NCBI GenBank assembly: GCA_964406105.1
Contig: CAYOQK010000024.1
Location: forward strand, 27,294 to 91,293
Length of the DNA: 64,000 nt
Direction: 5' to 3'
Source: an uncultured bacterium
GTDB lineage: Bacteria > Hydrothermota > Hydrothermia > WGAB01
The notes beneath the pieces are model-generated. The model saw only the letters and a program-made list of their open reading frames with translations. It made no database searches and was not told the origin of the DNA. Both the position numbers and the translations under genes were made by a program. How positions within the stretch are numbered: the first letter of the stretch is position 1; each line of letters starts with the position of its first letter. Below are positions 2-24,905 of this stretch, piece by piece.

Positions 2-583
2 TGCTCTGCTCCCATCACGCTGGACATCGCCCTGGCTGCCGGCCCTGTGGACATTGTGGCCACGCCCTTTGATGGCGACCCTCCCGATTCCCACGCCCAG
101 GAAAAGCTGGATTTCTCCCAAACCCTGGCGTTCCAAAACTTTCGCATTTATCCCGATCCCCTTGTGTACGAGCACTCGGACATAGACGTAACCCGCGAGG
201 CCGCTCGCCGCGGCCCTCATACCTATTTCACCCTGTTTGACTTTTCGGCCAAGTTTGATCCGGTGCCCACCATCCTGACCCAGAACCACACCCGGGTGAT
301 CCGCGAGTTCTTAGGTCAAGACACGGGATTCCGCAAGGACCGGCTCAAGGACAACGTGGTGATCATGGGCGAGGTCCTGGGCACCCAGGAGGCAAAGTAC
401 ATTTACGGCAACTACGGCAAGGGTTTTTTCAGTTTTCTGGGTGGCCACGATCCCGAGGACTACCAACACTTCATCGGCGATCCCCCTACCGACCTGAGCC
501 TGCACAAGCATTCGCCAGGGTACCGCCTTATTCTCAACAACGTTCTGTTCCCAGCAGCGCAAAAGCAACCCCTGAAAACTTAA
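2..583 (+). CDS. hypothetical protein, C-terminal fragment (gene continues upstream of window)
   Basis: Frame is open from the window start with no in-frame stop and ends at TAA 581-583, one nt before the coaX ATG. No motif recognised. Confidence 0.45.
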   Translation, partial: CSAPITLDIALAAGPVDIVATPFDGDPPDSHAQEKLDFSQTLAFQNFRIYPDPLVYEHSDIDVTREAARRGPHTYFTLFDFSAKFDPVPTILTQNHTRVIREFLGQDTGFRKDRLKDNVVIMGEVLGTQEAKYIYGNYGKGFFSFLGGHDPEDYQHFIGDPPTDLSLHKHSPGYRLILNNVLFPAAQKQPLKT

Positions 584-1343: not shown

Positions 1344-1353
1344 GCCACCGGCC

Positions 1354-9523: not shown

Positions 9524-12129
9524 AAGTTTGCCGACAGGCCGATTTGGACACTTCGGGGTTCCCGATACCGAGCGGGGTTGAGCATCATCTCAGGGGTCGT
9601 GCGGGGCGGCAGCGGATCTCCAGGTTCGTAGGCTCGCCCTGTCACCGGGTTCACGTAGTACACGTTCCGGTGATTGAACAGGTTCCGCACCGACACCTGG
9701 AGGGTCCAGGAGCCGTGGAGCCAGCGGAACCCCTTTCGGAAGGACACATCTACCCGATGCCAAGGGGGTCCCAGCCGAGAGTTCCGCTCTCCGGGGTTGC
9801 CCAGGGTGTCTATTGGGGTATAGCGTCGGCCAGCGCTGTAGGAGGCGTTGACCACCAGTTGCCAGTCGTCGGGCAGGGTCCAGCGGCCGAGCACCGGGTG
9901 TTCGCCTGGGCCCCAGCGATACCCCAGGGTGAGGAACAGTTCGTACGGGCGGTCCCACCGCAGGTACCATTCGCCCAGGCTCTCCTCGGCGCCCACGAAA
10001 TAGAAGTCTTCCTCGGTGGAAGACCGTCCTTTGGCCTGGGACAGGGTCCATTCCAAACGGCCGAACCAATGGCGAAACAGGCGGCGTTCCCACCGCCCCT
10101 CCAGGCCCACGGTGCGCGCATAATCGGCGTTGAAGTACATCCAGTAATCCGGATTCGGAGGGATGCCGGGCACCTTGCGGGCCGTAGGGTAGTTAAAAAT
10201 GTCCTTGTAATACGCCACCAGGGACACCTTGGTGTGATCGTTCAACAGGTGTTCCCAACCGAGCTCATAGGCCACGGTCACCTGGGGTTTGAGGTGGGGA
10301 TTGCCCACCAACTCGTAGGACGAAGAGGCCCGCACCCCCAACTTGGAGTACACGTACTTGAAATCGGGCATTTGGGAAAAATGGCCGTAGGAAAAGAAGA
10401 ACTTGTCCACATCGGTTACAGGGTAAGCAATGCCGATCCTGGGACTAAGGTGACCCTTGTAGCGGTAGCCCAGACGAGGAATCCGAGGGGTTTCGTCCAG
10501 GTACCGCTGGTACTCCTGGGCCACGATGGGGGCCAGATCGCCGGAGGCCAACCCGCGTTCCACCCCTCGGTCCAGGTACCGGCCGGGCACCCAAAAGTCG
10601 TACCGCAGCCCCACGTTGGCCACCATCCCCGCAAAGGTGATCCGATCCTGCAGGTACAAGCCGCCTCTGGTGGTGTACACCCGATACACATCGTGGTTCA
10701 GGCCCAACCCATCGGGGGAGTAGAACCAGGGGTACTGGATATCAATCCACTGGGCCTCGGTGTAGTTCAGGAGGAGGCCCATTTTGGTGGTGTGCACAGC
10801 CCTGGGCATCACGGTCCAGTCGGCCTTCAAGATGTAGCTCTCCACGTAGTGGTCGTGCCAGTACGGTGCATCGCCCGCATCGTAAAAGCCATAGGGCGGG
10901 ACATCGTCCCGCCGCTCCTGGTACTCGCTCCAGTGCTTGCCCTGTACATCCAGGTGGAGGTTGGAGAACACCCGGGAAAGCCGCACCTCGTAAAAGGACC
11001 GGGGAGAAAGCATCTCCTTGTAGGAAAGGATGGCCTGGTTGGAATGTCGGGTGAACACAGGGTAATGGTCCAGGATCTCAATGTAGCGATAAGGAAAGCC
11101 GTAGGCGAAGGGGTAATCGCGTCGGTAGTAAAAGTAGCCTTGATTGATCTCCAACGACTGGGTAAAGGTGAGGTAAAGCTTTCGGCGGTCGTTGGGCGTA
11201 GCTGCCAGTTTGAGGATGGCTGAGAGTTCGTTCTCCTCTCGGGGAGAGAGCCGATCCGTGCCCACCACCGAGGAGTACAAAGGACGGCCCACATGGGGCA
11301 GATAGGTGTCGGTGGTGCGGTAAAACAGGTTGCCGAACACCGTGAGCCGACCCAACAACGGAGCCTTTTGAACCAGGGGGCCGGAGAGCGAAGCGTCCAC
11401 TTGATCGGTGTTAAAGAAACGGAACAGATACGGGTGGTCGGTACGCACCGAGGCCGAGGTGTGCCAGCGGTCACCCCCTTCCCGGATCTCCACCTGGATC
11501 ACGCCCGACATGGCCTCGCCGTGTTCGGCATTGAAGCCTCCCAGCACGGCCTCGTACTCTTGAATCGCCGAGGAGGGGATGTACACCGTAAACGCATTGC
11601 CCGACAGGGGGTCCCGCACTGGAATGCCGTCAATCATCATGACGATCTCGTTGGTGCGGCCGCCCCGGATGTGCACCTCGCGGGTACCGAAACTCACCAC
11701 CCCCGCCTGGGTGCTTAAGGCGGTAACCGCGTTGGTGGCGCCCAGGTTCTCCAGGTCTTGGGAACTGAGGTTGCGCAGGGTTGCGCTCACCTTTTGTTCC
11801 AGCAGGGGGCGTTTGGCGGTCACCACGATCTCCTGTTCCAGGGTGATGGCCTCCTCTTCCAAGTAGAAGTCCAGGGTAACGGGGGTGTTGCCCCGAACCT
11901 CCACGGTGTAGGTTTTATCGGTATAGCCGAGCATGGAGGCCGTGATCCGGTACTTTCCCGGTGGCACATCAGGGATCACATAGGCTCCGTTTTCGTCGGT
12001 GGCCGCCCCCAAAGGAGTGCCTTCCAGGTAAACGTTGGCACCGGGCAGGCCTTTGCCCGTGCGGGCGTCATACACGTGTCCCTGCACGAAGCCACTGACC
12101 AGTACCAGCACAGGCACCCAAGCGAGCAT
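9520..12129 (-). CDS. TonB-dependent receptor with N-terminal carboxypeptidase-regulatory-like domain (SusC-like)
   Basis: 869 aa. Signal peptide, CarbD_reg-like GHVYDARTGKGLPGANVYLEGT...NGAY, plug region (VVTAKRPLLEQ, IRGG), long beta-barrel ending in terminal F (SANF). Confidence 0.85.
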   Translation of the reverse strand: MLAWVPVLVLVSGFVQGHVYDARTGKGLPGANVYLEGTPLGAATDENGAYVIPDVPPGKYRITASMLGYTDKTYTVEVRGNTPVTLDFYLEEEAITLEQEIVVTAKRPLLEQKVSATLRNLSSQDLENLGATNAVTALSTQAGVVSFGTREVHIRGGRTNEIVMMIDGIPVRDPLSGNAFTVYIPSSAIQEYEAVLGGFNAEHGEAMSGVIQVEIREGGDRWHTSASVRTDHPYLFRFFNTDQVDASLSGPLVQKAPLLGRLTVFGNLFYRTTDTYLPHVGRPLYSSVVGTDRLSPREENELSAILKLAATPNDRRKLYLTFTQSLEINQGYFYYRRDYPFAYGFPYRYIEILDHYPVFTRHSNQAILSYKEMLSPRSFYEVRLSRVFSNLHLDVQGKHWSEYQERRDDVPPYGFYDAGDAPYWHDHYVESYILKADWTVMPRAVHTTKMGLLLNYTEAQWIDIQYPWFYSPDGLGLNHDVYRVYTTRGGLYLQDRITFAGMVANVGLRYDFWVPGRYLDRGVERGLASGDLAPIVAQEYQRYLDETPRIPRLGYRYKGHLSPRIGIAYPVTDVDKFFFSYGHFSQMPDFKYVYSKLGVRASSSYELVGNPHLKPQVTVAYELGWEHLLNDHTKVSLVAYYKDIFNYPTARKVPGIPPNPDYWMYFNADYARTVGLEGRWERRLFRHWFGRLEWTLSQAKGRSSTEEDFYFVGAEESLGEWYLRWDRPYELFLTLGYRWGPGEHPVLGRWTLPDDWQLVVNASYSAGRRYTPIDTLGNPGERNSRLGPPWHRVDVSFRKGFRWLHGSWTLQVSVRNLFNHRNVYYVNPVTGRAYEPGDPLPPRTTPEMMLNPARYREPRSVQIGLSANF

Positions 12130-12414: not shown

Positions 12415-14772
12415 ATGCATCACATCCAAAAGGCAGCTGTACTCGGAGCCGGGACCATGGGGAGCCAGATCGCTGCCCACCTCGCCAACATTGGCGTGGA
12501 TGTCCTGCTCCTGGACATCGTGCCGCCCGATGCTCAAGACCCGCAGGATCGCAATCGTTTCCCTCGCTTGGCCCTGCAAAGGCTTCAGAAGTCTCAACCC
12601 CCGGCTTTTTACCACCCTGATTTTGCGGGTCGCATCCGCATCGGGAACTTTGAGGACGATCTCCCCAAGGTCTCGGAGGTGGACTGGATCGTGGAGGCCG
12701 TGGTAGAACGGCTGGACATCAAGCGCGCCCTGTTTGAGCGCGTGGAGCAGTTCCGGACTCCCGGCACCCTGGTGAGCACCAACACCTCCGGGCTCTCGGT
12801 GAATCAGCTGGCCGCAGGGCGGTCCGAGGATTTCCGCCGCCACTTCCTGGGCACCCACTTCTTCAATCCTCCGCGCTTCATGAAGCTCTTGGAACTGGTG
12901 CCCCAGCAAGACACAGACCCCGAGGTGCTTCGGTTCATGGTGGATTTCGGCCGACGCCGGCTGGGAAAAGGTGTGGTGATCGCCAAAGACACCCCCAACT
13001 TCATCGCCAACCGTTTGGGCGTGTTCGGCATCCTGCACACCATCCACACCATGGTGGAAATGGATCTCACCGTGGAGGAGGTGGATGCCATCACGGGACG
13101 AGCCATGGGGCGACCCCGCACCGCCACCTTCCGCACCATAGACCTGGTGGGCTTGGATGTGCTCCTGCACGTTGCCCGCAATGTCTACGAGAACGCACCC
13201 AACGACGAGATGCGAGAGATCTTCAAACCCCCGGAGTTTCTGGAAAAGATGGTGGAACGGGGGCTCCTGGGCGACAAAGCCGGTGGCGGCTTTTACAAGA
13301 AGGAAAACGGTCGCCGCTTGGTGCTGGACTGGAAAACCCTGGAATACCGGGAACGACAGAAGCCGAAGTTCGCCTCGGTGGACACGGCCCTGTTAGAGGA
13401 CACCCCAGAGGCCCGAATCCGGGTACTGCTCCAAGGCAAGGATAAGGCCGCGGAGTTCGCCTGGCGTACGCTCTCGGCCTTCCTGACGTATGCGGCCCGC
13501 CGTATCCCTGAGATCGCCGACGATATCCTCAGCGTGGACAACGCCATCAAATGGGGCTTCAACTTCCGCCTGGGTCCCTTTGAAACCTACGATGCCATCG
13601 GAGTGCGGTGGTTCGTGGAACGGCTGGAACAGGAAGGCCAACCGGTACCTGAACGGGTGCAGGAACTCCTGGACGCAGGGAAAGACCGGTTTTACCTGCA
13701 AGAACCCACCCGTCGGCTGTACTTTGACTTCACCCGCAAAGACCACGTCCCCGAGGAACTGCCCGAAGGGGTTATCGTGCTGGAATACCTGAAGGCAGAG
13801 GGCCGCGAAGTTCTGGCGAATCCCGAGGCCAGCCTCATTGACCTGGGCGATGGCGTCGCCCTGCTGGAGTTCCACACCAAAGCCAATGCCTTGGGTCCAG
13901 GCACCATCCAGATGATCTTTGACAGCCTGGAAAAGGTCCGCAGCGACTTTGACGCCTTGGTGCTGGGCAACCGAGGCCGCCACTTCTCCGCGGGCGCAAA
14001 CCTGGCGTTGATCCTGCAGGCCATCGCCGAGGAGGAATGGGACGAACTGGACTACATGGTGCGGCGGTTCCAGCAGGCGGCTATGGCGCTCAAGTACTTT
14101 GAGAAGCCCGTGGTGGCCGCACCCTTTGGACGGGTACTCGGTGGAGGCACGGAGATCACCATGCACACCCACCGGGCCCAGGCGGCCGCCGAGACCTACA
14201 TGGGGCTGGTGGAGGTGGCCGTAGGCCTGCTGCCTGCAGGCGGTGGCACCAAGGAAACCCTGATCCGCTTTACCCAGGACATCATGGCAATCCCAGATGC
14301 CGATCCCTACCCCTTCCTGCGGGAGGCCCTGACCCAGATCGGGATGGCTAAGGTGTCCATGAGCGCCTACGAGGCCCAACAGATGCGGTACCTGCGGCCC
14401 GGCGACGGTGTAACGATCAACGACGATTTCCTGCTGCACGACGCCAAACAGGTGGCTTTAGAGATGGCTCGTACGGGGTTCACACCGCCCACCCCGAAGA
14501 AGATCAAGGTCACCGGTGAATCCGGCTTTGCGTATCTCCAGATGCTCATCTACAACCTGCTGGAGGGCAAACAGATCACTGAGCACGATGCCTTTATCGT
14601 CACCCAGATCGCTCGGGTACTCACCGGAGGCTCTGTTCCTTACGGCACCGAGCTCACGGAGCAGGATCTGCTGGATTTGGAGCGTGAGGCCTTCCTGCGG
14701 CTCTGTGGCACAGAGAAAACGCAGCAGCGCATCATCCACATGCTCAACACCGGCAAACCCCTCCGCAACTAA
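12415..14772 (+). CDS. fadN: 3-hydroxyacyl-CoA dehydrogenase / enoyl-CoA hydratase fusion (FadN-type)
   Basis: 785 aa. N-terminal Rossmann [14 protein letters not shown] (HAD NAD-binding), C-terminal crotonase fold ([17 protein letters not shown]). Followed by thiolase and ACAD as in the B. subtilis fadN-fadA-fadE operon. Confidence 0.85.
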
Positions 14773-14786
14773 CAGGAGGAACCATC

Positions 14787-15962
14787 ATGAGACAGGCCGT
14801 TTTGGCTTTTCCCGTGCGCACCCCGGTGGGCAAAGCACCCCGGGGCAGTTTGAAGGACACCCGGCCCGACGAACTGGCGGCCCTTGTGATCCGCGAAGTG
14901 GTCCGCCGGTCGGGCATTGACCCCCAGGAAGTGGACGACGTGATCCTGGGGTGCGCCTTCCCCGAGGCCGAACAGGGGATGAACGTGGCTCGGGTGGCCC
15001 TGATCCGGGCCGGCTTGCCGAACTCCGTGCCCGGAATGACCGTCAACCGGTTCTGCTCCTCTGGGCTTCAGGCGATCGCTATCGCTGCAGAACGCGTGAT
15101 GGTGGGGGCCGCAGATCTCATCATCGCCGGAGGCGTGGAGTCCATGAGCCGCGTGCCCATGGGCGGCTTCCGCTCCTCTCCCAACCCGTACCTGATGGAG
15201 CACTACCCCCAACTCTACATGGCCATGGGGCTTACCGCTGAGCGGGTGGCGGAAAAGTACGGCATTTCACGCGAGGACCAGGACCGCTTCGGATACGAGA
15301 GCCACATGAAGGCGGCCCGCGCGATCCGCGAGGGCAAGTTTCAGGAAGAGATCGTTCCCGTTCACACCCGCGTGATCCGTCGCACCGAGGACGGCGAGCA
15401 AGTGGTGCAGGAGATCACCTTGGAGGTGGACGAGGGGGTACGGTTTGACACCAGTTTGGAGAAAATGGCCCGATTGAAACCCGTGTTCAAACAGGGGGGA
15501 ACCGTCACTGCAGGCAATTCCTCGCAAATGAGCGATGGAGCAGCGGCGGTGCTCGTGATGTCGGAGGAGAAGGCCAAAAGCCTGGGCATTGAACCCATGG
15601 CGTACTTCCGTGGATACGCCGTGGCAGGCGTGCCTCCCGAGATCATGGGCATCGGCCCGGTGGAGGCCGTGCCAAAGGTGCTACGCCTTACCGGCGTACG
15701 CCTGGAAGACCTGGATCTCATTGAGCTGAACGAGGCCTTTGCCGCCCAATCCTTGGCCGTCATTCGGGAATTGAACCTGCCCTACGAAAAGGTGAACGTG
15801 AACGGTGGCGCCATTGCCTTGGGCCACCCCCTGGGCTGCACGGGCGCCAAACTCACCGCTACCCTGCTCTATGAGATGAAGCGCCGAGATGCCACCTTGG
15901 GCCTGGTGACCATGTGCATCGGCGGCGGCATGGGCGCCGCTGGCATCTTTGAACGCCGTTAA
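14787..15962 (+). CDS. fadA: acetyl-CoA C-acyltransferase (thiolase)
   Basis: 391 aa. Active-site Cys context [12 protein letters not shown]-terminal GGGMG motif region. Confidence 0.9.
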
Positions 15963-15976
15963 CCGGAGGGAAAACC

Positions 15977-17749
15977 ATGGCACAGGATACCCCGCTGTAC
16001 AAAAAGGGCGGAGGCTTTCTGCTGGCCGATACCCCGGCCGAGGAGATGTTCACCCCCGAGGAGTTCACCGAAGAGCAACGGATGTTTGCCCAGGCCGCAG
16101 ACGAGTTCATGGAAAAGGAGGTGCTCCCCAAAAACGAACAGATTGAAAAGCAGGACTTTGACCTGCTTCGTTACCTGATGAAGAAGGCTGGGGAACTGGG
16201 CCTGCTGGCGGTGGACATCCCGGAGAAGTACGGAGGCCTGGGGCTGGACAAGGTGTCTTCCATGCTCATCGCCGAGCGCATGGCCAAACAGGGGTCTTTC
16301 AGCGTAACCTGGGGCGCCCACACCGGCATCGGTACCCTGCCCATCGTGTTTTTCGGCACTGAAGAACAGCGGCAAAAGTACCTGCCGGGCCTGGCCTCTG
16401 CCGACATCATCGGGGCCTATGCCCTCACCGAACCCGGGGCAGGCACAGATGCCATGAACATCAAAACCCGGGCCGTTCTCTCGGACGATGGCAAGTCGTA
16501 CATTCTCAACGGCAGCAAACAGTTCATCACCAATGCGGCCATCGCCGATCTCTTCACGGTCTTTGCCAAGATTGACGGCGAGAAGTTCACGGCCTTTCTG
16601 GTGGAACGGGATACCCCGGGCCTGGAACTGGGCGCCGAGGAAAAGAAACTGGGCATCAAGGGATCCAGCACCCGAAGCCTGACCTTCAACAACGTCAAGG
16701 TGCCCGTGGAGAACGTGGTGGGCGAGATCGGCAAAGGACACCACATTGCCTTCGGCATCCTCAACATCGGGCGATACAAACTGGGCGTGGGCTCCGTAGG
16801 AGCAGCCAAGGAGGCTCTGAAGGTAGCGGTGAACTACGCCAAAGAGCGGGTGCAATTCGGCCAACCCATTGCCAACTTCGGCCTGATCCAAGAAAAGATC
16901 GCCCACATGACCACCCGCATCTTCGTTACCGAAACCATGGCGTACCGCTTGGCCGGGCTCCTGGACGAAGCCATGAAGGGCCTGGATCCCAACGCACCGG
17001 ACTACACCCAGAAGTCCTGGAATGCCGTGGCGGAGTATGCGGTGGAGTGCTCCATCCTCAAGGTGTACGGCTCCGAGATGCTGGACTACGTGGTGGACGA
17101 AACCGTACAGATCTTCGGAGGCTACGGCTACACCCAGGAGTACCCCGCAGAGCAGTACTACCGGGATTCACGGATCAATCGGATCTTTGAGGGCACCAAC
17201 GAGATCAACCGCATCCTGATCCCCGGGATGCTCATGCGGCGGGCCCTGAAGGGCCTGATCCCACTGGTCCCCGTAGCGGCCAAAACCGCCAAAGAGACCC
17301 TCACCCTAATGCCCACCATGATGCCGCGGCCCGAGGGGCCGTTTTCCAATGAGAAGTTCGCTCTGCAGATGGCCAAACGGATCGCCCTCACCCTGGCTGC
17401 GGTGGCAGCCGACAAGTTCAAAGAGGCCCTGCGTCAGGAGCAAGAGGTGCTCGCCGGTCTGGCGGATATCGTCACCGAGGTGTATGCCCTGGAAAGCATC
17501 CTCCTGCGTGCCCTCAAGTCGGGCCACCGTTTGATGGCCTCCATGGTAGAGATGTACACCTACGAGGCCATGAAGCGCATAGAGCTCCGGGCCTACGAGA
17601 TCCTGCCGTACATGAGCGAGGGCGACGAGCTCCGCACCCTGATCTCCACCGTCCGAAAACTGGTTCGGCCCTTTAGCCCGCCGAACCTCATCCAAAAAAG
17701 GAGGGAGATCGCCCGCACGGTCATTGACCAGGGCAAGTATCCCTTCTAA
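15977..17749 (+). CDS. fadE: acyl-CoA dehydrogenase (long form with C-terminal extension)
   Basis: 590 aa. ACAD N-terminal, middle and C-terminal domain motifs (YALTEPGAGTDA, GGYGYTQEYP...RDSRINRIFEGTNEI). Confidence 0.85.
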   Translation: MAQDTPLYKKGGGFLLADTPAEEMFTPEEFTEEQRMFAQAADEFMEKEVLPKNEQIEKQDFDLLRYLMKKAGELGLLAVDIPEKYGGLGLDKVSSMLIAERMAKQGSFSVTWGAHTGIGTLPIVFFGTEEQRQKYLPGLASADIIGAYALTEPGAGTDAMNIKTRAVLSDDGKSYILNGSKQFITNAAIADLFTVFAKIDGEKFTAFLVERDTPGLELGAEEKKLGIKGSSTRSLTFNNVKVPVENVVGEIGKGHHIAFGILNIGRYKLGVGSVGAAKEALKVAVNYAKERVQFGQPIANFGLIQEKIAHMTTRIFVTETMAYRLAGLLDEAMKGLDPNAPDYTQKSWNAVAEYAVECSILKVYGSEMLDYVVDETVQIFGGYGYTQEYPAEQYYRDSRINRIFEGTNEINRILIPGMLMRRALKGLIPLVPVAAKTAKETLTLMPTMMPRPEGPFSNEKFALQMAKRIALTLAAVAADKFKEALRQEQEVLAGLADIVTEVYALESILLRALKSGHRLMASMVEMYTYEAMKRIELRAYEILPYMSEGDELRTLISTVRKLVRPFSPPNLIQKRREIARTVIDQGKYPF

Positions 17750-17763
17750 AAGGAGGGCCCATC

Positions 17764-19449
17764 ATGGATCGGCCCTGGTATGCCCATTACGATCAAGGGG
17801 TTCCTCGGAGCATTGAGTACCCCCGGGTTCCCCTTACGGAGCTCGTGGAACGGGCAGCCCGAAAGTACCCGAACAACGTTGCCTTTTCCTTCTTTGGCGT
17901 AGAGCAAACCTACCACGAGTTCATTGCCCAGGTGCATCGCTTTGCTGCCGCCCTCTATGACCTGGGGATCCGCAAAGGCGATCGCGTTTCCCTGATGCTG
18001 CCCAACTCGCCCCAGTTCCTGATCGCCTTTTACGGTGCCCTCAAAATCGGTGCCACGGTGGTACAAACGAACCCCCTGTACATGCCCTACGAGTTGGAAC
18101 ACATCCTGAACGATTCGGGCACCGAGACCATCGTGGCTCTGCATGTTTTCCATCCCCGCATTGAGGCGGTGCGCAGCAAAACCCCCTTGCGCCGCATCAT
18201 TTACACCTGCCTTGCCGAGTACCTGCCCTGGTGGATGAAGCCCCTGTACCGGTTGCGGCTCTTAGCGAAACGACAAACCCTCCGTGTACCCCGAGGTGCC
18301 GGCATCTATCGCTTCCAAGAACTCCTGCGCTCGGCTTCTCCCACTCCTCCCCAGGTGGACATTGACCCGATGGAAGACGTGGCGTTGTTCCAATACACCG
18401 GGGGCACTACGGGCACACCCAAGGCCGCCATGCTCACCCACTTCAACCTGGTGGCCAACACCTATCAAACCATCACCTGGGACACCATGATGGAGGAGGG
18501 CCACGAGGTGGTCATGGGTGCCCTGCCCTTCTTCCACGTGTACGGCATGACCGTGGCCATGAACCTGGCGATGGTGTCGGGTAGCAAACTGGTGCTGGTT
18601 CCCAAGTTTGAAGTCAAACAGGTGGTCAAACTCCTGGAGAAACATCGCGTGACCCTTTTTCCCGGTGCCCCCACCATGTACATCGCCGTGATCAACATGC
18701 CAGGGGTAGAAAAGCACGACCTGTCGTCCATCAAGGTGTGCATCTCGGGCTCTGCTCCCCTGCCTGTGAAGGTCAAGGAGGACTTTGAACGCCTCACAGG
18801 GGCCAAACTGGTGGAAGGCTATGGCCTGTCGGAGGCCTCTCCTGTGACCCACTGCAATCCCATTCTGGGGGTCAACAAGGCCGGCAGCATCGGGTTGCCG
18901 TTCCCGGACACCGACGCCAAGATCGTGGACCCGGAAACCGGCGAACGTGAGATGCCTGTGGGCGAACCGGGTGAGCTGGTGGTCCGCGGCCCTCAGGTCA
19001 TGAAGGGCTATTGGAACCGCCCCGAGGAAACCGCCCTGACCCTCCGTGACGGGTGGCTACACACCGGAGACATCGCCCGGATGGACGAAGAGGGCTACTT
19101 TTACATCGTGGACCGCAAGAAGGACATGATCCTGGCCTCAGGGTTCAACATCTATCCTCGGGAGGTGGAGGAGGTCCTGTTCCGACACCCTAAGGTTAAG
19201 GAAGTGGCGGTCATCGGGGTACCTCATCCTTACCGCGGGGAAACGGTCAAGGCCTTCGTGGTTCCCAAGGAGGGTGAAACCCTCACCGCCGAGGAGATCA
19301 TCCAGTTCTGCCGCCAAAACATGGCGAAGTTCAAGTGCCCCACGGAGGTGGAATTCCGCACGGAGCTGCCCAAGACCTTCGTGGGCAAGGTGCTCCGACG
19401 CGTATTGCGGGAAGAGGAATTGAAGAAACGCGGCCAGGAATCCGCTTAA
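17764..19449 (+). CDS. fadD: long-chain-fatty-acid--CoA ligase
   Basis: 561 aa. AMP-binding motif YTGGTTGTPKAAMLTH, GYGLSE, and C-terminal motif K in the KTFVGKVLRRVLREE region. Confidence 0.88.
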   Translation: MDRPWYAHYDQGVPRSIEYPRVPLTELVERAARKYPNNVAFSFFGVEQTYHEFIAQVHRFAAALYDLGIRKGDRVSLMLPNSPQFLIAFYGALKIGATVVQTNPLYMPYELEHILNDSGTETIVALHVFHPRIEAVRSKTPLRRIIYTCLAEYLPWWMKPLYRLRLLAKRQTLRVPRGAGIYRFQELLRSASPTPPQVDIDPMEDVALFQYTGGTTGTPKAAMLTHFNLVANTYQTITWDTMMEEGHEVVMGALPFFHVYGMTVAMNLAMVSGSKLVLVPKFEVKQVVKLLEKHRVTLFPGAPTMYIAVINMPGVEKHDLSSIKVCISGSAPLPVKVKEDFERLTGAKLVEGYGLSEASPVTHCNPILGVNKAGSIGLPFPDTDAKIVDPETGEREMPVGEPGELVVRGPQVMKGYWNRPEETALTLRDGWLHTGDIARMDEEGYFYIVDRKKDMILASGFNIYPREVEEVLFRHPKVKEVAVIGVPHPYRGETVKAFVVPKEGETLTAEEIIQFCRQNMAKFKCPTEVEFRTELPKTFVGKVLRRVLREEELKKRGQESA

Positions 19450-19467: not shown

Positions 19468-20322
19468 TCACCCTACCGCCAAAAGGATCATGCTGCTCAT
19501 CATGTAGAGCGAGGCGAACTTGAAGAGCAGGAAATTCCGCCGGGGGGACGGCCGCGTGGCGCTGGTCAATGCCAAAAGGGTGAGGGCCACAGAAAGCACC
19601 ACCAGCACCTGCAAGATCCCCGCTGTCACCCCGATTCGCCAGGCAGCCACGATCATCGTCAGGGCCGCGAGGATGGCAGAACCGGCGATCATCGCATAGG
19701 CGAACCGAGGCCCGTACACGATGGGGATGGTCGGCACCCCGGCACGGCGGTAATCCTCATCGTACCGGAGCGCAAAGGTCACGATATGGGTGGGGATCCA
19801 AAAGAGGACCGCTAAGGCCAACAGGAGCCCCACCTCGTCTATTTGACCTGCAGACAACACTCGGCCGGCCAACACGGGCATGCCTCCAGCAGCACCACCC
19901 CACAGGATAGACCAAGCTGTGCGCCGCTTGAGCCAAAGGGTGTATACCACCACATCAAAAAACCACCCCGCAAACACTACAAGGCCATAGAGGGCGGAAA
20001 GGCGCAGGGCCCAACCGACCCCCAACACCGAGAGCAGAACCCCCAACCCCAACGCCTCGCTGGGGGACACCCGATGGGTAGGGAGGGGCCGCCAACAGGT
20101 GCGGTACATCCGGGCATCAATATCCCGGTCATACCACATGTTGACCACCGTGCTGCCAATGATGGCCAGGTACAAACTGCCCACCAACCCCACCACCTGG
20201 CTCCAGGGCCCTAAGGTGTGGGCACTGAAGTACCCGGCGATGCCGGTGAGTACCAGCAGGCCGGTTTGCAGGCTTTTGGTGAGCTGCCAGTAATTGCGAA
20301 GCCGATTCCAAAGGGTTTGCAT
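19468..20322 (-). CDS. ctaB: protoheme IX farnesyltransferase (heme O synthase), UbiA family
   Basis: UbiA-type polytopic protein starting MQTLWNRLRNYWQLTKSLQTGLLVLTGIAGY. ATG at 20322 has an AAGGGA RBS. The ORF-track N-extension to 20649 overlaps the upstream gene and is rejected. Confidence 0.8.
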   Translation of the reverse strand: MQTLWNRLRNYWQLTKSLQTGLLVLTGIAGYFSAHTLGPWSQVVGLVGSLYLAIIGSTVVNMWYDRDIDARMYRTCWRPLPTHRVSPSEALGLGVLLSVLGVGWALRLSALYGLVVFAGWFFDVVVYTLWLKRRTAWSILWGGAAGGMPVLAGRVLSAGQIDEVGLLLALAVLFWIPTHIVTFALRYDEDYRRAGVPTIPIVYGPRFAYAMIAGSAILAALTMIVAAWRIGVTAGILQVLVVLSVALTLLALTSATRPSPRRNFLLFKFASLYMMSSMILLAVG

Positions 20323-20342
20323 AGGTTTCCCTTGAAAAGGGC

Positions 20343-20370
20343 TTGCGGGGCGGCGCTGCAGCGCCGCCCC
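20343..20370 (-). terminator. perfect 12-4-12 palindrome GCGGGGCGGCGC-TGCA-GCGCCGCCCCGC; candidate intrinsic terminator/attenuator between the FGE-like gene and ctaB
   Basis: Seen in sequence. On the minus strand it is followed by AAGCCCUUUUC. Confidence 0.4.
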
Positions 20371-20383
20371 GCAACGCCCGGCT

Positions 20384-21328
20384 TTACGGCTCTTCAGCCG
20401 ATTCACCCTCTTGGACCTCCCGAACACAGCGGAATCCCACGGTAGGACCCGCAAATTCCGGAGGCGCGAAGTTCCGCCATGTGGCCCGGCAGTCAATCTC
20501 GTAGTCGGTGAAACTGCCTCCCTTGAGGATGCGCTGGTGGGTTTCCTCAATGTCGTCAGACACCCACTCCCACACGTTGCCCGCCATATCGTACGCGCCG
20601 TAGGGGCTTGCCGCGTTCTCGGTGTGGAACCCCAGGTGGGTTTGGCCATTGTAAAAGCCCACAGGCGTGGTTTCTCCTAAGCCACCCCACAGGCTCTCAA
20701 AGGGATCACGACTCTTGTAGTAGTTGGCGTGGGCAGGGGTGATCTCATGTCCCCACGGATAGGGCCGACCGTCCGTGCCGCGGGCCGCCTTTTCCCACTC
20801 GGCCTCGGTGGGGATCCGATAGCCGTAGTACCGGCAGTAGGCCCAGGCACCGAAATAGGTTACAAAGGTGGCCGGATGGTTCTCAAAGCCCCGCTGCACC
20901 ACAAAGGAGTCGCCCTCCCAGTGCACCTTTTGGCCCACCCGGTGGAGCGGATACGCCAGGTACCATCCTGCGTCAATCTTCTCCTCGTGCTTACCACCGT
21001 GGTACGGCTCCCCTGGGTAAAAGGCCATCACGCCCTCTTCGGAGAGTTTGATGAGGTTCCGGGCGGCTGAGTCACGAAGCGCCTGATTCAGGAACCGGGC
21101 CCACTGAGCATTGGTGACAGGGGTTTTCATGATCTCGTAGTCGTAGTCCAGCACCATCCGCCGGTTATGGAGACCAAACAGGAACTCGCCGGCCGGTACC
21201 CGCACCCACTCCTCGGGGTTAACCCCGGTGTCCACCGTGGGCACAGCTTCCGGCGGCTCCGGCCGGGGCGCACAGGCAGCCATCAACAACACACCCAGCG
21301 TCAGGCTAAGAGCGACCTTGCGGTTCAT
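20384..21328 (-). CDS. FGE/SUMF1-domain lipoprotein (NirV-like)
   Basis: 314 aa. Lipobox LLMAACA. Formylglycine-generating-enzyme fold motifs YRIPTEAEWEKAARG, GNVWEWVSD, RGGSF. Its start overlaps the upstream HCO-like gene by 4 nt. Confidence 0.75.
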   Translation of the reverse strand: MNRKVALSLTLGVLLMAACAPRPEPPEAVPTVDTGVNPEEWVRVPAGEFLFGLHNRRMVLDYDYEIMKTPVTNAQWARFLNQALRDSAARNLIKLSEEGVMAFYPGEPYHGGKHEEKIDAGWYLAYPLHRVGQKVHWEGDSFVVQRGFENHPATFVTYFGAWAYCRYYGYRIPTEAEWEKAARGTDGRPYPWGHEITPAHANYYKSRDPFESLWGGLGETTPVGFYNGQTHLGFHTENAASPYGAYDMAGNVWEWVSDDIEETHQRILKGGSFTDYEIDCRATWRNFAPPEFAGPTVGFRCVREVQEGESAEEP

Positions 21329-22821
21329 TTCTGCTCCTCCTCAAACACCACAGGCATGGCGGGGTTCCGCCACTCCTCTACCCACCGCCCCTGGGGCTTA
21401 AAGAGATCCACCAGTCGCCAGAGCAGGAACAGGGCCAATCCCGTGAGGAACAGGAACAGGCTCACATCCATCACCAGGAGGGTGCGGGCCACCAGAGGCT
21501 GCTCCTGGATCTCGGGAACCCAGAGCCGCTTCATGATGAGCACGTTGGCGCCCAGGGTGGCCACATCAGAGCCCAGGATCACGATCCAGCCGAAGATCTG
21601 GCGGGCCTTGCCCTTCAGGCCAGCCACATCCAGGTAGTAAAGGAGCAACACCGTGGCGATCATGAAGGCCAGGATGTGCCAGTGGCCCACCAGACCGATC
21701 TTCTCTTCCCGCAGCAGAATGCTCCGGAAGAACTCCAACTTGATGGCCATGAACACGCCGGGAGCGGTAACCACCAGGTTCATGAACATCATCTGCCAGG
21801 TGGCTCCCCAGGGCAGGGGATCGTGGAACAGGGCCTTGAGTTTCTGTCCGAACCCGGCCTTGTCCGGGGACAACCCTTGGCGAGCCAGGCCCACCTCAAT
21901 TTGCCGTCGCCACACGAAGATGGTGAGCAGCAGCGAGGCGAGCATCAGGAACCCGGCCCCCACGTTGATGATGTGGTGAGCGATGGCACGGAAGGGCACC
22001 ACCATCCAAGCCCCCACACTGATGATCACCGTGCCGATGATCATCAGGGGAATGGCCCACTTCTGAAGCCGCCCTTTGAAGTCCGTCCACCGGCTCACGA
22101 TGAACACCGCCATGACCGCGATGTCCACGAGCATGATGTGGAGGTGTCCCACGATGGCCAGCTCCATGGGCGTGTGGTAGGGGATGCGGATGATGTCCTC
22201 GGAGAGGAACACCTCAAAGCTGTGGCCGAAGAAGGACCCTGGAATGGCGCCGTAAATGGCCGAGATCAGTGTGGCCACAACAGCGATGAACACCGCGAGC
22301 TTTTCAATGTCCACACCACTTGCCGTTTTGAGGTACGGGGCATCGGGTGGCAACCGATGGTCACGGGACCAAGGCCAGAAGGCCACAGCCAACCACACCC
22401 CACCGAAGAAAAGCAGGCTCTGGCCAAAGAGGAACAGGCCGTGGAACACCCAGTTATGCCCCCAGTAGGCAAACAGCAGTCCGAAGATCATGGCGGACAG
22501 GTAGCCCACGGTCACCAGCACGTGGATCCCGATCCGGTGTACCTCCTTGATGCGGTACACCGCGGTGAGCATGTACACCTCCAGAGCCACCACGGCCATG
22601 GCGAAGGTGTGGTACAGGAAGATGAGCCGACCTTCGCGCTCCAGGGGATCCAGTTTCATCCCCCACAATTTGATCCAGAACTCCCTTACCCCCCACTCAG
22701 CCATGGGCCCGGAGAGCATGCCCATAAAGGCCGCCTGCAGGGCAATGAGCGCCACCGTGCCCAGGATGAGCCCCCGAGAGGTGCCGAAAAGGTAGCGCAA
22801 ACGCGACGCCAGTCCCTTCAT
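21325..22821 (-). CDS. heme-copper oxidase superfamily catalytic subunit homolog (divergent; candidate NO/O2 reductase)
   Basis: 498 aa, about 12 predicted TM helices. His ligands at canonical positions: helix II LYHTFAMAV, helix VI GHLHIM, helix VII/VIII AIAHHIINVG (compare bovine WAHHMFTVG), helix X GHWHILAF (compare AHFHYV). No Tyr at the HPEVY position. Confidence 0.6.
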   Translation of the reverse strand: MKGLASRLRYLFGTSRGLILGTVALIALQAAFMGMLSGPMAEWGVREFWIKLWGMKLDPLEREGRLIFLYHTFAMAVVALEVYMLTAVYRIKEVHRIGIHVLVTVGYLSAMIFGLLFAYWGHNWVFHGLFLFGQSLLFFGGVWLAVAFWPWSRDHRLPPDAPYLKTASGVDIEKLAVFIAVVATLISAIYGAIPGSFFGHSFEVFLSEDIIRIPYHTPMELAIVGHLHIMLVDIAVMAVFIVSRWTDFKGRLQKWAIPLMIIGTVIISVGAWMVVPFRAIAHHIINVGAGFLMLASLLLTIFVWRRQIEVGLARQGLSPDKAGFGQKLKALFHDPLPWGATWQMMFMNLVVTAPGVFMAIKLEFFRSILLREEKIGLVGHWHILAFMIATVLLLYYLDVAGLKGKARQIFGWIVILGSDVATLGANVLIMKRLWVPEIQEQPLVARTLLVMDVSLFLFLTGLALFLLWRLVDLFKPQGRWVEEWRNPAMPVVFEEEQK

Positions 22822-22891
22822 TGCAGAACCTCCGTTGGTTTACCACAGCCCCTGGCCCAAGGTCGCAGGGGCAGGGAGACCTCAGTCGCGG

Positions 22892-23518
22892 TTATTTGGC
22901 GGAAATCCGCCGGACCAACCCCCAGGTGTACGCCAGGGTCATGAGCAAGAGCAGGGGCGAGAGAATGGCAAACACCACAGGGGCACTAAAGAACAACAGC
23001 TGCTTGCCCGCCTTCAAGAAGGCCAGCGCCATACCTCCCAGGCTGATGAGTACACCCCCCACCGACACCCACACAAAGCCTGCCGGTGCCTGAGCCTGGG
23101 TCACCGCCAGAATGGGGACGAGCACGATGGTGAGCCCCGCGATGCCGTGTACAATGGGCAGGATCACCCGACCCAACCCCTGTAAACCGGGGTTCAGGTA
23201 ACCCACGGCAATCAACAGGAACCCCACCACCGCAAACACGGTGTACGCTGTGCCCAGCGAGGGCTTGACGTCGTACACCAGCCCTGTGGCCAGGCCCAGG
23301 GGGATCAAGGTGGTCACCACAACCACCCAGGGGGATCCCAGGATGTCATAGCCCAGGAAAATGAGCAGCAACCCTGCCACCAGCAACACCAGGAAGGACA
23401 GCCCATAGGCCACCTTGGCCCCCTTCACCAGCTTGTCACCGGCCTGGTTCAAACGAACCAGCATGTAGATGGCCGTTAAGCCCGTCAACAACAACAACAC
23501 CTTATCCCACCAGTGCAT
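22892..23518 (-). CDS. polytopic membrane protein (about 6 TM), no Cys, first gene of the HCO-like operon
   Basis: 208 aa, strongly hydrophobic throughout. No CxxCH or cupredoxin motifs. Confidence 0.5.
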   Translation of the reverse strand: MHWWDKVLLLLTGLTAIYMLVRLNQAGDKLVKGAKVAYGLSFLVLLVAGLLLIFLGYDILGSPWVVVVTTLIPLGLATGLVYDVKPSLGTAYTVFAVVGFLLIAVGYLNPGLQGLGRVILPIVHGIAGLTIVLVPILAVTQAQAPAGFVWVSVGGVLISLGGMALAFLKAGKQLLFFSAPVVFAILSPLLLLMTLAYTWGLVRRISAK

Positions 23519-23832
23519 CGTGCACCTCCTTCACGGTTTTGGGAAAACCCTTGGTGAGTCCTTCTACGCACCCCGCGGAAGCACCACCCTCCCCCTCTAC
23601 AAACCTGTGCAGAGGCAAAACTCTTACACGCCGCTCCAGTACCCGTGTCGTCATCTCTCCTCGGGCCTGCCCTGTGTGGTAGTAACCGCTTACTTTAAAA
23701 CGTTACGGGGGCAGGGCGACGGTGTCAAGCATTTCACAGGACCTCCAAGGGGCAGGGCCCTGTAGGGCTCTTTGTGATCTTAGGAGGATCCACAGGGAGA
23801 GGAGTTTCGCAGAGCCGAGGGGGAACACATCA

Positions 23833-23915
23833 TGCGAGGGGCGGGACTCGAACCCGCACGGGAATACCCCACCAGATCCTAAATCTGGCGCGTCTGCCTA
23901 TTCCGCCACCCTCGC
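23833..23915 (-). tRNA. tRNA-Leu (anticodon TAG)
   Basis: Minus-strand read GCGAGGGTGGCGGAATAGGCAGACGCGCCAGATTTAGGATCTGGTGGGGTATTCCCGTGCGGGTTCGAGTCCCGCCCCTCGCA. 7-bp acceptor stem, anticodon loop TT-TAG-GA, long variable arm (type II), GGTTCGAGTCC T-arm. CCA not encoded. Confidence 0.85.
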
Positions 23916-23930
23916 AGGTATGGGTAAAGG

Positions 23931-24905
23931 TTATACAGCACCCCCTTCGGGGGTGGGAGCAGTTTCAAACACCCCAAACTGCAAGAAGCGTTGCCGCCGG
24001 TGCTGGAGCACCTCCTCGGGCGAAAGCCGTCGGAGATCGGCCAGGTGCCGCAACACGGCCTCCTTCACACGGCGAATTGCCTCCTCAGGCTGACGATGCG
24101 CACCCCCCAGAGGCTCCGGGATCACCTCGTCCACCACCCCAAGCCGATGGAGATCCTTGGAGGTCAACCGCAGTACCTCTGCGGCCTTGGGGGCCTCCGC
24201 ACCGTCTTTCCAAAGGATGGCTGCACACCCTTCGGGCGAGATCACCGAGTAAATGGCGTATTCCAGCATCAGCACTCGGTTGCCCACCCCAATGGCCAGC
24301 GCTCCACCGGATCCGCCCTCGCCGATCACCACGGCCACAATAGGCACCTTCACCTCCAACATGGTTTGGATGGCCGTGGCGATGGCCCGAGACTGCCCTC
24401 GTTCCTCGGCCTCAATCCCTGGAAAGGCCCCAGGAGTGTCAATCAAGGTAACGATGGGCAACCCGAATTTATCCGCCAAACGAAAGAGCCGCTCCGCCTT
24501 GCGGTACCCTTCGGGGTTGGGCATCCCAAAGTTGCGCTGCACTCGTTCTTTGACATCGCGCCCCTTTTCCTCGCCCACCACCACCCACCGTTGGTCCTCC
24601 ACCTGGATCAACCCACCCACAATAGCGGGATCATCGCCATAGTACCGATCGCCGTGGAGTTCCAAGAAGTCGGTGGCCATCCCGCGGATGTAGTCCAGGG
24701 CATGGGGCCGATCGGCATGACGGGCTACCTGCACGATCTGCCACGGGGTGAGATGGGCATAGATCTTCCGGCGGATCCGTTCGGCCCGGGCCTCCAGATC
24801 CCGGATCTCGTCGGCCAGATCCGGCCGCGTATCCAGCAATCGCTTCAATTCTTCTAAACGCTTCTCAATGTCGTAAAGGGGTCGCTCAAAGTCCAGCAAC
24901 CTCAT
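23931..24905 (-). CDS. accA: acetyl-CoA carboxylase carboxyltransferase subunit alpha
   Basis: 324 aa. MRLLDFERPLYDIEKRLEEL N-terminus and carboxyltransferase motifs (PIVAVVIGEGGSGGALA). Confidence 0.88.
   Translation of the reverse strand: MRLLDFERPLYDIEKRLEELKRLLDTRPDLADEIRDLEARAERIRRKIYAHLTPWQIVQVARHADRPHALDYIRGMATDFLELHGDRYYGDDPAIVGGLIQVEDQRWVVVGEEKGRDVKERVQRNFGMPNPEGYRKAERLFRLADKFGLPIVTLIDTPGAFPGIEAEERGQSRAIATAIQTMLEVKVPIVAVVIGEGGSGGALAIGVGNRVLMLEYAIYSVISPEGCAAILWKDGAEAPKAAEVLRLTSKDLHRLGVVDEVIPEPLGGAHRQPEEAIRRVKEAVLRHLADLRRLSPEEVLQHRRQRFLQFGVFETAPTPEGGAV

What the first reader, a model, noticed from the sequence alone, without database searches (positions are those of the whole stretch)
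19468..23518. Unusual operon context: 6-TM partner, HCO homolog, NirV/FGE-like lipoprotein and heme O synthase, with no cupredoxin or cytochrome c subunit II
On the minus strand a 208-aa polytopic protein without Cys, the HCO homolog and a lipoprotein with a formylglycine-generating-enzyme (SUMF1) domain are coupled by 4-nt overlaps, followed after a strong hairpin by ctaB. Established knowledge: FGE-domain NirV genes accompany nirK in denitrifiers, and FGE itself is a copper enzyme. A heme O synthase next to an HCO suggests O-type or A-type heme use. Canonical HCO operons encode a CuA or cytochrome c subunit II, which is absent here. This is consistent with an NO-reductase-like enzyme that takes electrons differently, possibly with a copper-chaperone-like role for the FGE lipoprotein.
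Basis: partly seen in the sequence, partly recalled or inferred. Interest (0 to 1): 0.7.

Follow-up and report, generated by a model that had tools for sequence, protein, structure and literature searches.

The report
Hidden haem-copper-oxidase-like membrane enzyme cassette
Four neighbouring genes encode an unannotated membrane protein with the fold and metal-binding histidines of respiratory haem-copper oxidases, a catalytically dead FGE-fold lipoprotein, a 7-helix partner and haem O synthase; hundreds of mostly anaerobic bacterial species keep this set together, so it probably marks an undescribed kind of NO- or O2-reducing enzyme.

Summary
The four minus-strand genes are real, but two details are wrong. 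Only the 498-aa gene and the FGE-like gene overlap by 4 nt; the 208-aa gene lies 70 nt upstream. The 208-aa protein models as seven helices, not six.

The order 498-aa gene, FGE-like gene, ctaB holds wherever the contig extends far enough in 80 loci from several phyla. The start/stop overlap occurs in 62 of 78 loci, and a natural fusion of the two proteins exists. The lipoprotein lacks both FGE catalytic Cys and is not a NirV orthologue. No subunit II gene lies in the window or recurs in the loci. nirS is adjacent in six loci.

Best reading: a haem-O enzyme without subunit II, more likely reducing NO than O2. No paper found describes it.

The parts
22892..23518 (-). 208-aa Cys-free membrane protein ('TM208') of an uncharacterised family; predicted 7-helix bundle
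22822..22891 (-). 70-nt spacer with a GGAGG before the 498-aa start; it is not a 4-nt overlap
   Evidence: Sequence read directly.
21325..22821 (-). 498-aa, 12-helix protein ('X498') with the fold of HCO subunit I; invariant H71, H127, H226, H228, H282, H380, H382 and M230
20384..21328 (-). 314-aa lipoprotein with an FGE/SUMF-fold domain that lacks the FGE catalytic cysteines; likely the outer-face partner of X498
   Evidence: PF03781 at E 6.6e-44. Best solved relative is the inactive paralogue SUMF2. Where T. curvata FGE reads GGSFLC-HESYC, the window protein reads GGSFTD-YEIDC. The second Cys position is Leu in 73 of 78 members; the lipobox Cys is present in 72 of 78; H114 is invariant, E115 is conserved in at least 90% of members, and H151 is present in 76 of 78. 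An ATGA or GTGA overlap with the X498 stop occurs in 62 of 78 loci. A natural X498-TM13-FGE fusion exists as 8 sequence variants.
20339..20379 (-). GC-rich hairpin between the FGE-like gene and ctaB, followed by only a short U run; possibly an attenuator or an mRNA-stabilising element
   Evidence: -44.9 kcal/mol, z -4.1. The terminator scan does not call it because the T tract is too short.
19468..20322 (-). Haem O synthase (CtaB/CyoE), 284 aa from the ATG at 20322; the longer 393-aa ORF is an upstream extension that overlaps the FGE-like gene
   Evidence: TIGR01473 equivalog at 211.1 bits against a cut-off of 210.3. PF01040. It follows the FGE-like gene in essentially every locus long enough to show it.
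23519..23832 (-). Leader region between a tRNA gene and the 208-aa gene; the promoter was not identified
   Evidence: tRNA at 23833-23915. No sigma-70-like promoter was found, and no TTGAT-N4-ATCAA box within 2 mismatches lies here.

Best explanation
The genes encode a membrane oxidoreductase built on a very divergent member of the haem-copper oxidoreductase (HCO) fold.

Shown. X498 has the 12-helix subunit-I fold. It keeps His at the positions of the low-spin haem ligand on TM10, the high-spin haem ligand, and two of the three CuB ligands. It also keeps the basic pair that binds the haem propionates. It is co-inherited with haem O synthase. It is translationally coupled, and in some bacteria fused, to an extracytoplasmic FGE-fold lipoprotein that cannot be a formylglycine-generating enzyme.

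Inferred. X498 binds two haems, at least the active-site one being haem O made by the adjacent CtaB. It also binds one metal, held by H226, H282 and probably M230. The lipoprotein caps the outer face in the place of subunit II. Electrons enter from the quinol pool, possibly through the 7-helix partner and/or an extra site formed by H127 and H228, because the cassette encodes no cytochrome c or CuA domain. The substrate is a small oxidant. NO (detoxification or respiration) is favoured over O2 because the cross-linked Tyr is replaced by Met and nirS is a recurrent neighbour.

For: Ligands: seven His are invariant or at least 90% conserved down to 20% identity. A colinear 358-column profile alignment to an A-family profile places them on H284, H333, H419 and H421, and places K431/R432 on R481/R482.

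Topology: K+R counts are 17 on the inside and 6 on the outside.

Cassette: the order X498, FGE-like gene, ctaB is seen in 80 loci from Chloroflexota, Aminicenantes, Calditrichota, Ignavibacteriota, Marinimicrobia, WOR-3 and delta-proteobacterial MAGs. The 4-nt overlap occurs in 62 of 78 loci. The fusion protein P0242 exists in 8 variants on at least 14 contigs, with a 13th helix that puts the FGE domain outside the membrane. Pairwise distances of X498, the FGE-like protein and CtaB correlate at r 0.50-0.67.

ctaB is a true equivalog hit.

NO lean: M230 aligns with the catalytic Tyr. No Tyr is conserved between residues 218 and 290. Murali et al. 2024 treat loss of this Tyr as excluding O2 reduction (PMC11214002). 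nirS is adjacent in 6 of 80 loci in at least two arrangements. A Crp/Fnr-family regulator lies upstream in 34 loci, an Rrf2 regulator in 5, and DUF2249/DUF1858 proteins in 5.
Against: There is no biochemical evidence. The profile alignment is weak on its own (E 0.0014, probability 17%), and block-shuffled controls reach a similar score, though over at most 102 columns. The TM2 His is offset by 7 residues at the edge of that alignment.

Haem O is typical of O2 reductases, whereas cNOR and qNOR use haem b. There are no acidic residues like the FeB Glu ligands of cNOR. The window itself has no nirS, no regulator next to the cassette and no FNR box. nirS adjacency is seen in only 6 of 80 loci. Divergent family members stand alone without the FGE-like gene or ctaB, so the lipoprotein is not essential to the fold.
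Confidence: 0.5

Rival explanations
1. It is a quinol-dependent O2 reductase, a scavenging oxidase of mostly anaerobic bacteria. On this view it is a stripped-down analogue of cytochrome bo3, where cyoE likewise sits in the operon.
For: Haem O synthase is the most tightly linked gene besides the lipoprotein, as in cyoABCDE. Hosts are mostly anaerobes or microaerophiles that would benefit from O2 removal. A Crp/Fnr-type regulator is often upstream. The top fold match is a high-affinity cbb3 oxidase.
Against: The position of the cross-linked Tyr is an invariant Met, and no conserved Tyr lies in TM6 or TM7. One CuB His is not conserved. No K-channel Lys is aligned. By the criterion used in PMC11214002, enzymes without this Tyr are not O2 reductases.
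Confidence: 0.2
2. X498 and the lipoprotein are not a terminal reductase. Instead they could be a haem-O-dependent enzyme or handling machine, for example one that modifies or exports farnesylated haem. Alternatively they could oxidise a periplasmic substrate bound by the lectin-like FGE fold.
For: The FGE fold binds peptides or small molecules in FGE, EgtB, OvoA and CalU17. H114 is invariant and E115 at least 90% conserved in a family-specific insert. Outer-face loops of X498 are more conserved than inner ones, 0.74 against 0.59. An extra conserved His pair, H127 and H228, has no counterpart in canonical HCOs.
Against: The pattern of haem and metal ligands matches that of a catalytic HCO core. 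Divergent relatives work without the lipoprotein or ctaB next door. No candidate substrate genes recur in the loci.
Confidence: 0.15
3. The lipoprotein is a genuine copper-dependent FGE, or a copper chaperone, that matures a sulfatase or loads Cu into X498.
For: It has a PF03781 domain. FGE is a Cu(I) enzyme (PMC12123546, listed).
Against: The two Cu-binding Cys of FGE are not kept. The window protein reads GGSFTD..IDC where T. curvata FGE reads GGSFLC..SYC, and the remaining Cys is Leu in 73 of 78 homologues. The best solved match is the inactive SUMF2. No sulfatase gene is in the cassette.
Confidence: 0.04
4. The neighbourhood is a chance juxtaposition of unrelated genes, or the HCO-like fold is an artefact of structure prediction for a generic polytopic protein.
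For: There is no family-model hit. Foldseek E-values are weak, best 7.5e-4.
Confidence: 0.01

Closest known systems
cbb3 oxidase CcoN and cNOR NorB (C-family and NOR branch of the HCO superfamily)
   Different: There is no detectable sequence similarity. There is no FixO, FixP or NorC cytochrome c partner. X498 has an HxH motif in TM6, only one conserved His in the TM7/8 region, Met at the Tyr position of A/B-type enzymes, no FeB-type Glu, and a linked haem O synthase.
E. coli cytochrome bo3 (cyoABCDE)
   Same: It is a quinol-using HCO whose operon contains the haem O synthase gene. The X498 profile aligns colinearly with CyoB residues 106-518.
   Different: bo3 has subunits II, III and IV, Y288, E286, and H333/H334. 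X498 has M230, H228, and only H282 conserved. Its partners are an FGE-fold lipoprotein and a 7-helix protein unrelated to CyoC.
qNOR, and the eNOR/sNOR/gNOR/nNOR families (Murali et al. 2024, PMC11214002)
   Same: These are HCO relatives that lack the active-site Tyr and have altered active sites. They are proposed or shown to reduce NO. qNOR also has no separate subunit II and uses quinol.
   Different: All of those families are recognisable HCOs. They either keep CuA-type subunit II homologues or are close to qNOR or cNOR. X498 is invisible to Pfam COX1 and has a different partner set.
NirV (FGE-domain protein next to nirK)
   Same: It is an FGE-sulfatase-domain protein encoded beside an enzyme of nitrogen-oxide metabolism. 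This was confirmed for S. meliloti pSymA, where the protein next to the nirK candidate scores PF03781 at E 6.5e-42. [quoted passage not shown]
   Different: It is only 28% identical over 83 aa, so it is not an orthologue. The partner here is an HCO-like protein, with start/stop overlap and occasional fusion.
SUMF2/pFGE, and PorK/GldK-type FGE-fold lipoproteins
   Same: These are FGE folds without catalytic cysteines that serve as binding or structural subunits. SUMF2 is the best solved relative, at E 4.4e-20.
   Different: They work in unrelated cellular contexts (ER retention; type IX secretion ring).

Membership tests
HCO superfamily, subunit I | 12-helix core fold with pseudo-threefold arrangement | tested here: met
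HCO superfamily, subunit I | Six ligand His: TM2 H, TM6 H, TM7 HH, TM10 HxH | tested here: inconclusive
   H226, H282, H380 and H382 align exactly with CyoB H284, H333, H419 and H421. The TM2 His (H71) is invariant but offset by 7 residues at the edge of the alignment. The second TM7 His is present in the window protein (H283) but not conserved in the family. No 3D distances could be measured.
HCO superfamily, subunit I | Match to the sequence family model (Pfam PF00115 COX1) | tested here: not met
   No hit at E <= 10 for 17 diverse members. As a control, a canonical HCO in L056 scores 2.2e-61. UniProt's PROSITE-profile-based name on one homologue is the only automatic sequence call.
HCO O2 reductases (A, B and C families) | Active-site Tyr cross-linked to a CuB His | tested here: not met
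   M230 aligns with Y288. No Tyr is conserved in TM6 or TM7.
HCO enzymes in general | Subunit II (cupredoxin/CuA or cytochrome c) encoded with subunit I | tested here: not met
   None is found in the window, and none is among the recurrent neighbours in 80 loci. In the controls, subunit II lies directly upstream in all 8 annotated canonical loci.
cNOR/qNOR | FeB site with a Glu ligand and conserved TM6 glutamates; NorC or a fused N-terminal domain | tested here: not met
   There is no invariant acidic residue between residues 218 and 314. There is no NorC-like gene and no N-terminal extension.
Formylglycine-generating enzyme (SUMF1) | FGE-sulfatase fold domain | tested here: met
   PF03781 at E 6.6e-44.
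Formylglycine-generating enzyme (SUMF1) | Two catalytic, Cu(I)-binding cysteines (C269 and C274 in T. curvata FGE) | tested here: not met
   The first is Asp/Thr in the window protein. The second is Leu in 73 of 78 homologues.
NirV | Orthology to NirV and adjacency to nirK | tested here: not met
   28% identity over 83 aa to S. meliloti NirV. No NirK homologue was found in the window or the loci.
Haem O synthase (CtaB/CyoE) | Equivalog-level match to TIGR01473 | tested here: met
   211.1 bits against a cut-off of 210.3 for the 284-aa product.
HCO subunit III/IV (tested for the 208-aa protein) | Sequence or fold similarity to CyoC/CtaE-type subunits | tested here: not met

The most novel reading that the evidence does not exclude
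X498 could be a deep, previously unrecognised branch of the haem-copper oxidoreductase superfamily that still shows the ancestral triplication in its sequence: TM3-6 is homologous to TM7-10, and each unit carries an H...GHxH ligand set. On this reading it has a His2Met-type active-site metal, plus an additional cofactor or relay site (H127/H228) in the pore that canonical enzymes use as the D-channel. A lectin-fold lipoprotein would stand in for subunit II. It would be the 'missing' NO reductase, or a new small-molecule reductase, of Anaerolineae, Aminicenantes, Calditrichota, Ignavibacteriota and relatives.
Probability: 0.3. Interest if true: 0.9.

Novelty: new variant of a known kind. Interest (0 to 1): 0.8.

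Why it matters
HCOs perform essentially all aerobic respiration and most biological N2O formation, and their family tree is used to date and order the oxygen and nitrogen cycles.

This family is found in at least 583 of 185,579 species-representative genomes and in thousands of metagenomic proteins. It is invisible to the standard COX1 model, so it is absent from gene-centric surveys of respiration and denitrification.

If it reduces NO, N2O-source budgets for anoxic sediments, digesters and hot springs miss an enzyme. If it reduces O2, many 'strict anaerobes' have an unrecognised oxidase.

Its sequence-detectable internal repeat and unusual ligand set make the old hypothesis that subunit I arose by triplication of a four-helix unit directly testable. 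The obligatory FGE-fold partner would be a new solution to the subunit II role. It may also shed light on the unexplained NirV-NirK pairing.

Tried and rejected
- Sequence searches of X498 and its profile against PDB sequences found only a spurious hit.
- Pfam and NCBIfam at permissive thresholds gave nothing relevant.
- hhalign against single sequences of CyoB, FixN, NorB and a Chloroflexota COX1 gave nothing. Plain global alignment gave non-significant, out-of-register matches that paired HxH motifs of different helices. Only a 12-sequence A-family profile gave a colinear alignment.
- The afdb50 fold library was unavailable.
- TM208 as subunit III was rejected.
- FNR/NnrR box and sigma-70 promoter scans of the leader found nothing above chance.
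- A search for NirK, NnrS, NorB, NorC, FixNOP, NapA and NorQD homologues in the 80 loci found only NirS (6 loci), DUF2249 proteins (3) and one canonical COX1.
- Look-ups of divergent family members were meant to test whether the cassette is older than the main family. Two were on contigs too short to tell. Two were stand-alone genes.
- Six literature searches found no description of this family or of an HCO-FGE pairing.
- No cultured carrier could be named from the source names seen.


Full report
**Anatomy**

On the minus strand lie four ORFs:
- a 208-aa Cys-free membrane protein (TM208) at 23518..22892, preceded by GGAGG;
- a 498-aa membrane protein (X498) at 22821..21325, also preceded by GGAGG;
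- a 314-aa protein at 21328..20384;
- a UbiA-family ORF ending at 19468.

A 70-nt spacer separates TM208 from X498.

The third protein has a signal peptide with a lipobox Cys and a PF03781 FGE-sulfatase domain, E 6.6e-44.

After its stop comes a 14-bp GC hairpin (-44.9 kcal/mol, z -4.1). An ATG at 20322 follows. The resulting 284-aa product passes the TIGR01473 haem O synthase equivalog cut-off, 211.1 against 210.3 bits.

A tRNA gene lies upstream at 23833-23915. No sigma-70-like promoter or FNR-type box was found in the leader.

**What X498 is**

X498 matches no Pfam or NCBIfam model, even at E <= 10 across 17 diverse members. It matches no PDB sequence either.

It belongs to a large family of uniform length. 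More than 2667 proteins match at E <= 0.001, all named 'hypothetical'. There are 366 representatives at 50% identity.

An AlphaFold2 model built from 40 homologues has pLDDT 84, pTM 0.87 and 12 long helices.

Foldseek agrees, with weak E-values. UniProt's automatic annotation names one homologue 'Cytochrome oxidase subunit I profile domain-containing protein'.

Lys+Arg counts give an N-in topology as in HCOs: 17 on the inside and 6 on the outside.

**Ligands**

In the main family H71, H127, H226, H228, H282, H380 and H382 are invariant. Among members down to 20% identity, H71, H127, H226 and H380 stay invariant, and H228, H282 and H382 are at least 90% conserved.

These residues lie in TM2, at the start of TM4, in TM6 (the invariant motif GHLHIML), at the start of TM8 and in TM10 (GHWH).

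To map them I assembled 12 canonical A-family subunit I sequences: E. coli CyoB, ten plasmid-borne ctaD, qoxB or cyoB genes, and one Chloroflexota COX1.

The profile-profile alignment with the X498 superfamily is statistically weak (E 0.0014, probability 17%). Block-shuffled controls reach a similar score, but over at most 102 columns. The real alignment is colinear over 358 columns, X498 residues 64-471 against CyoB residues 106-518. It maps:

| X498 residue | CyoB residue | Role in CyoB |
|---|---|---|
| H226 | H284 | CuB ligand |
| M230 | Y288 | cross-linked catalytic Tyr |
| H228 | E286 | D-channel Glu |
| H282 | H333 | CuB ligand |
| H283 (window only) | H334 | CuB ligand |
| H380 | H419 | haem o3 ligand |
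| H382 | H421 | haem b ligand |
| K431/R432 | R481/R482 | basic pair at the haem propionates |

The roles of the CyoB residues are established knowledge.

The TM2 His is seven residues out of register at the edge of the alignment.

So the two-haem scaffold and two of the three CuB ligands are kept. The third CuB His is not conserved in the family, and the catalytic Tyr is an invariant Met. H127 and H228 have no canonical counterpart.

**An internal repeat**

Residues 93-250 (TM3-6) align with residues 251-403 (TM7-10) at hhalign probability 88%, E 3.3e-6, over 122 columns. The alignment equates H127 with H282, and GH226LH228 with GH380WH382.

The real score is 41.3. Controls score lower:
- column shuffles, at most 15.6;
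- reversal, 13.5;
- 10-column block shuffles, at most 28.7.

The third unit (TM11-12-1-2) aligns in register but not significantly. The same test on the 12 canonical HCOs gives nothing.

The structural pseudo-threefold symmetry of subunit I is textbook knowledge. Here it is visible in sequence, and the ligand set is duplicated. By symmetry, H127/H228 would line the TM3-6 pore. That is an inference, not a measurement.

**The partners**

The lipoprotein's best solved relative is the catalytically inactive SUMF2. Aligned with T. curvata FGE (GGSFLC-HESYC), the window protein reads GGSFTD-YEIDC.

Across 78 homologues from the loci:
- the remaining Cys position is Leu in 73;
- the lipobox Cys is kept in 72;
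- H114 is invariant and E115 is conserved in at least 90%; both lie in a family-specific insert.

It is therefore neither an FGE nor a bis-thiolate copper protein.

S. meliloti NirV was fetched as a control. It is indeed a PF03781 protein next to the nirK candidate ORF. It is only 28% identical over 83 aa to the window protein.

TM208 models confidently (pLDDT 94) as seven helices. It resembles only generic 7TM bundles, not CyoC. It has a single invariant His, H124.

**Conservation of the cassette**

A scan of one genome per species found at least 583 species with an X498 relative. The 80 best loci come from Anaerolineae and other Chloroflexota, Aminicenantes, Calditrichota, Ignavibacteriota, Marinimicrobia, WOR-3 and delta-proteobacterial MAGs.

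Wherever the contig extends far enough, the order X498, FGE-like gene, ctaB is kept. TM208 paralogues lie upstream and/or downstream.

Further evidence that the genes travel and work together:
- The X498 stop overlaps the lipoprotein start (ATGA or GTGA) in 62 of 78 loci.
- A 785-aa natural fusion exists in eight sequence variants on at least 14 contigs: X498, then a 13th helix replacing the signal peptide, then the FGE domain. It has a UbiA-family gene 4.5 kb upstream.
- Pairwise distances of the three proteins correlate at r 0.50-0.67.

Other recurrent neighbours:
- a Crp/Fnr-family regulator, 34 loci;
- three uncharacterised membrane-protein families, 30, 17 and 10 loci;
- cd1 nitrite reductase NirS, 6 loci; it lies directly upstream of TM208 in the three lineages that follow the two ~90%-identical copies in similarity to the window copy, and downstream in three others;
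- Rrf2 regulators, 5 loci;
- DUF2249/DUF1858 proteins, 5 loci;
- multihaem cytochromes, 4 loci.

No cupredoxin or cytochrome c subunit recurs. All 8 annotated canonical control loci have subunit II directly upstream of subunit I.

More divergent X498-like proteins occur alone, one of them in a spore-former.

**Interpretation**

Fold, ligand pattern, topology and obligatory linkage to haem O synthase argue that X498 is a haem-binding redox enzyme of the HCO kind. The overlap and the fusion argue that the FGE-fold lipoprotein is its outer-face subunit.

The following steps are inferred, not shown:
- There is no cytochrome c or CuA domain, so quinol is the likely electron donor, as in bo3 and qNOR.
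- The missing Tyr argues against O2 reduction by the known mechanism (PMC11214002).
- Together with nirS adjacency, that favours NO as substrate.
- Haem O, and the lack of cNOR-type glutamates, keep an O2-scavenging role or a quite different chemistry open.

I found no paper describing the family. The new HCO families of Murali et al. 2024 all retain CuA-type subunits or are close to qNOR or cNOR.

**The host**

The window encodes LptF/G, BamA, a TonB-dependent receptor with a CarboxypepD_reg domain and a PorV-like protein. The host is therefore a diderm resembling the FCB group (Fibrobacterota-Chlorobiota-Bacteroidota).

The closest named cassette copy (90%) is in a WOR-3 MAG (an unclassified MAG carries one at 91%), and the next (79%) is in an Anaerolineales MAG. 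This suggests transfer of the cassette between phyla.

Noticed in passing
window 93-403 of the X498 protein (DNA 21613..22545, minus strand): There is a sequence-detectable internal duplication in X498. TM3-6 is homologous to TM7-10 (hhalign E 3.3e-6), and the H...GHxH ligand set is duplicated. The same test on 12 canonical HCO subunit I sequences found nothing.
   Followed up: yes
L004 2696-4489, L006 5493-7244, L007 232-1977; L009 12359-14593, L010 12524-14788, L079 14213-15343: Cytochrome cd1 nitrite reductase (nirS) genes lie immediately upstream of the cassette in three Anaerolineales MAGs. They lie just downstream of it in three other Chloroflexota MAGs. The window itself has a tRNA gene and accA upstream instead.
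   Followed up: partly
P0242 and relatives; L089 8001-10358: A natural 785-aa fusion joins X498, an extra transmembrane helix and the FGE-fold domain. It exists in eight sequence variants on at least 14 contigs. A UbiA-family gene lies 4.5 kb upstream.
   Followed up: yes
window 1315-2454, 8525-12129, 38240-40510: LptF/G, a PorV-like protein, a TonB-dependent receptor with a CarboxypepD_reg domain and BamA show that the host is a diderm resembling the FCB group. The cassette's next-nearest relatives (79%) are in monoderm-type Chloroflexota MAGs, which suggests transfer between phyla.
   Followed up: partly
window 23833-23915 (-): An 83-nt tRNA gene lies between accA and the cassette leader.
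   Followed up: no
window 44343-46042: A 472-aa ORF has a third-position GC of 0.46, against about 0.75 elsewhere in the window. It has no Pfam hit and no Rfam hit. It may be a spurious ORF over non-coding or foreign DNA.
   Followed up: no
window 57499-62487 (+), 49128-51248 (-), 4403-7518 (-): Several large ORFs (1662, 706, 604 and 434 aa) have no Pfam family.
   Followed up: no
window 12415-19449 (+): A fatty-acid beta-oxidation block converges on ctaB: a FadB-like 3-hydroxyacyl-CoA dehydrogenase/enoyl-CoA hydratase (Pfam), a putative thiolase and a putative acyl-CoA dehydrogenase (not searched against any family library), and an AMP-binding enzyme likely to be an acyl-CoA synthetase (Pfam). 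It is not part of the cassette in other loci.
   Followed up: no
L083 (S. meliloti pSymA) 22697-24589 (-): A DUF2249/TusA protein and an unannotated 452-aa polytopic protein lie in the nirK-nirV-nnrS-nor region. DUF2249/DUF1858 proteins also recur beside the cassette in Aminicenantes MAGs (L023, L044, L054).
   Followed up: partly
L085 8001-9356; L087/L088 8001-9275: Divergent X498-like proteins (24-31% identity, with the His set kept) occur as stand-alone genes without the FGE-like gene or ctaB. One lies among spore-germination genes of a Firmicute-like contig.
   Followed up: partly
L056 3562-5202: One Chloroflexota locus carries a canonical COX1 gene (PF00115, E 2.2e-61) directly upstream of the X498 cassette. 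In the alignment of 12 canonical sequences, it alone has Asn at the position of the TM6 CuB His.
   Followed up: no
window 51537-52478 (+): A polyprenyl synthase gene lies 30 kb from the cassette. Another lies near the fused variant in L089. It could supply the farnesyl diphosphate that CtaB needs, or the proximity could be coincidence.
   Followed up: no
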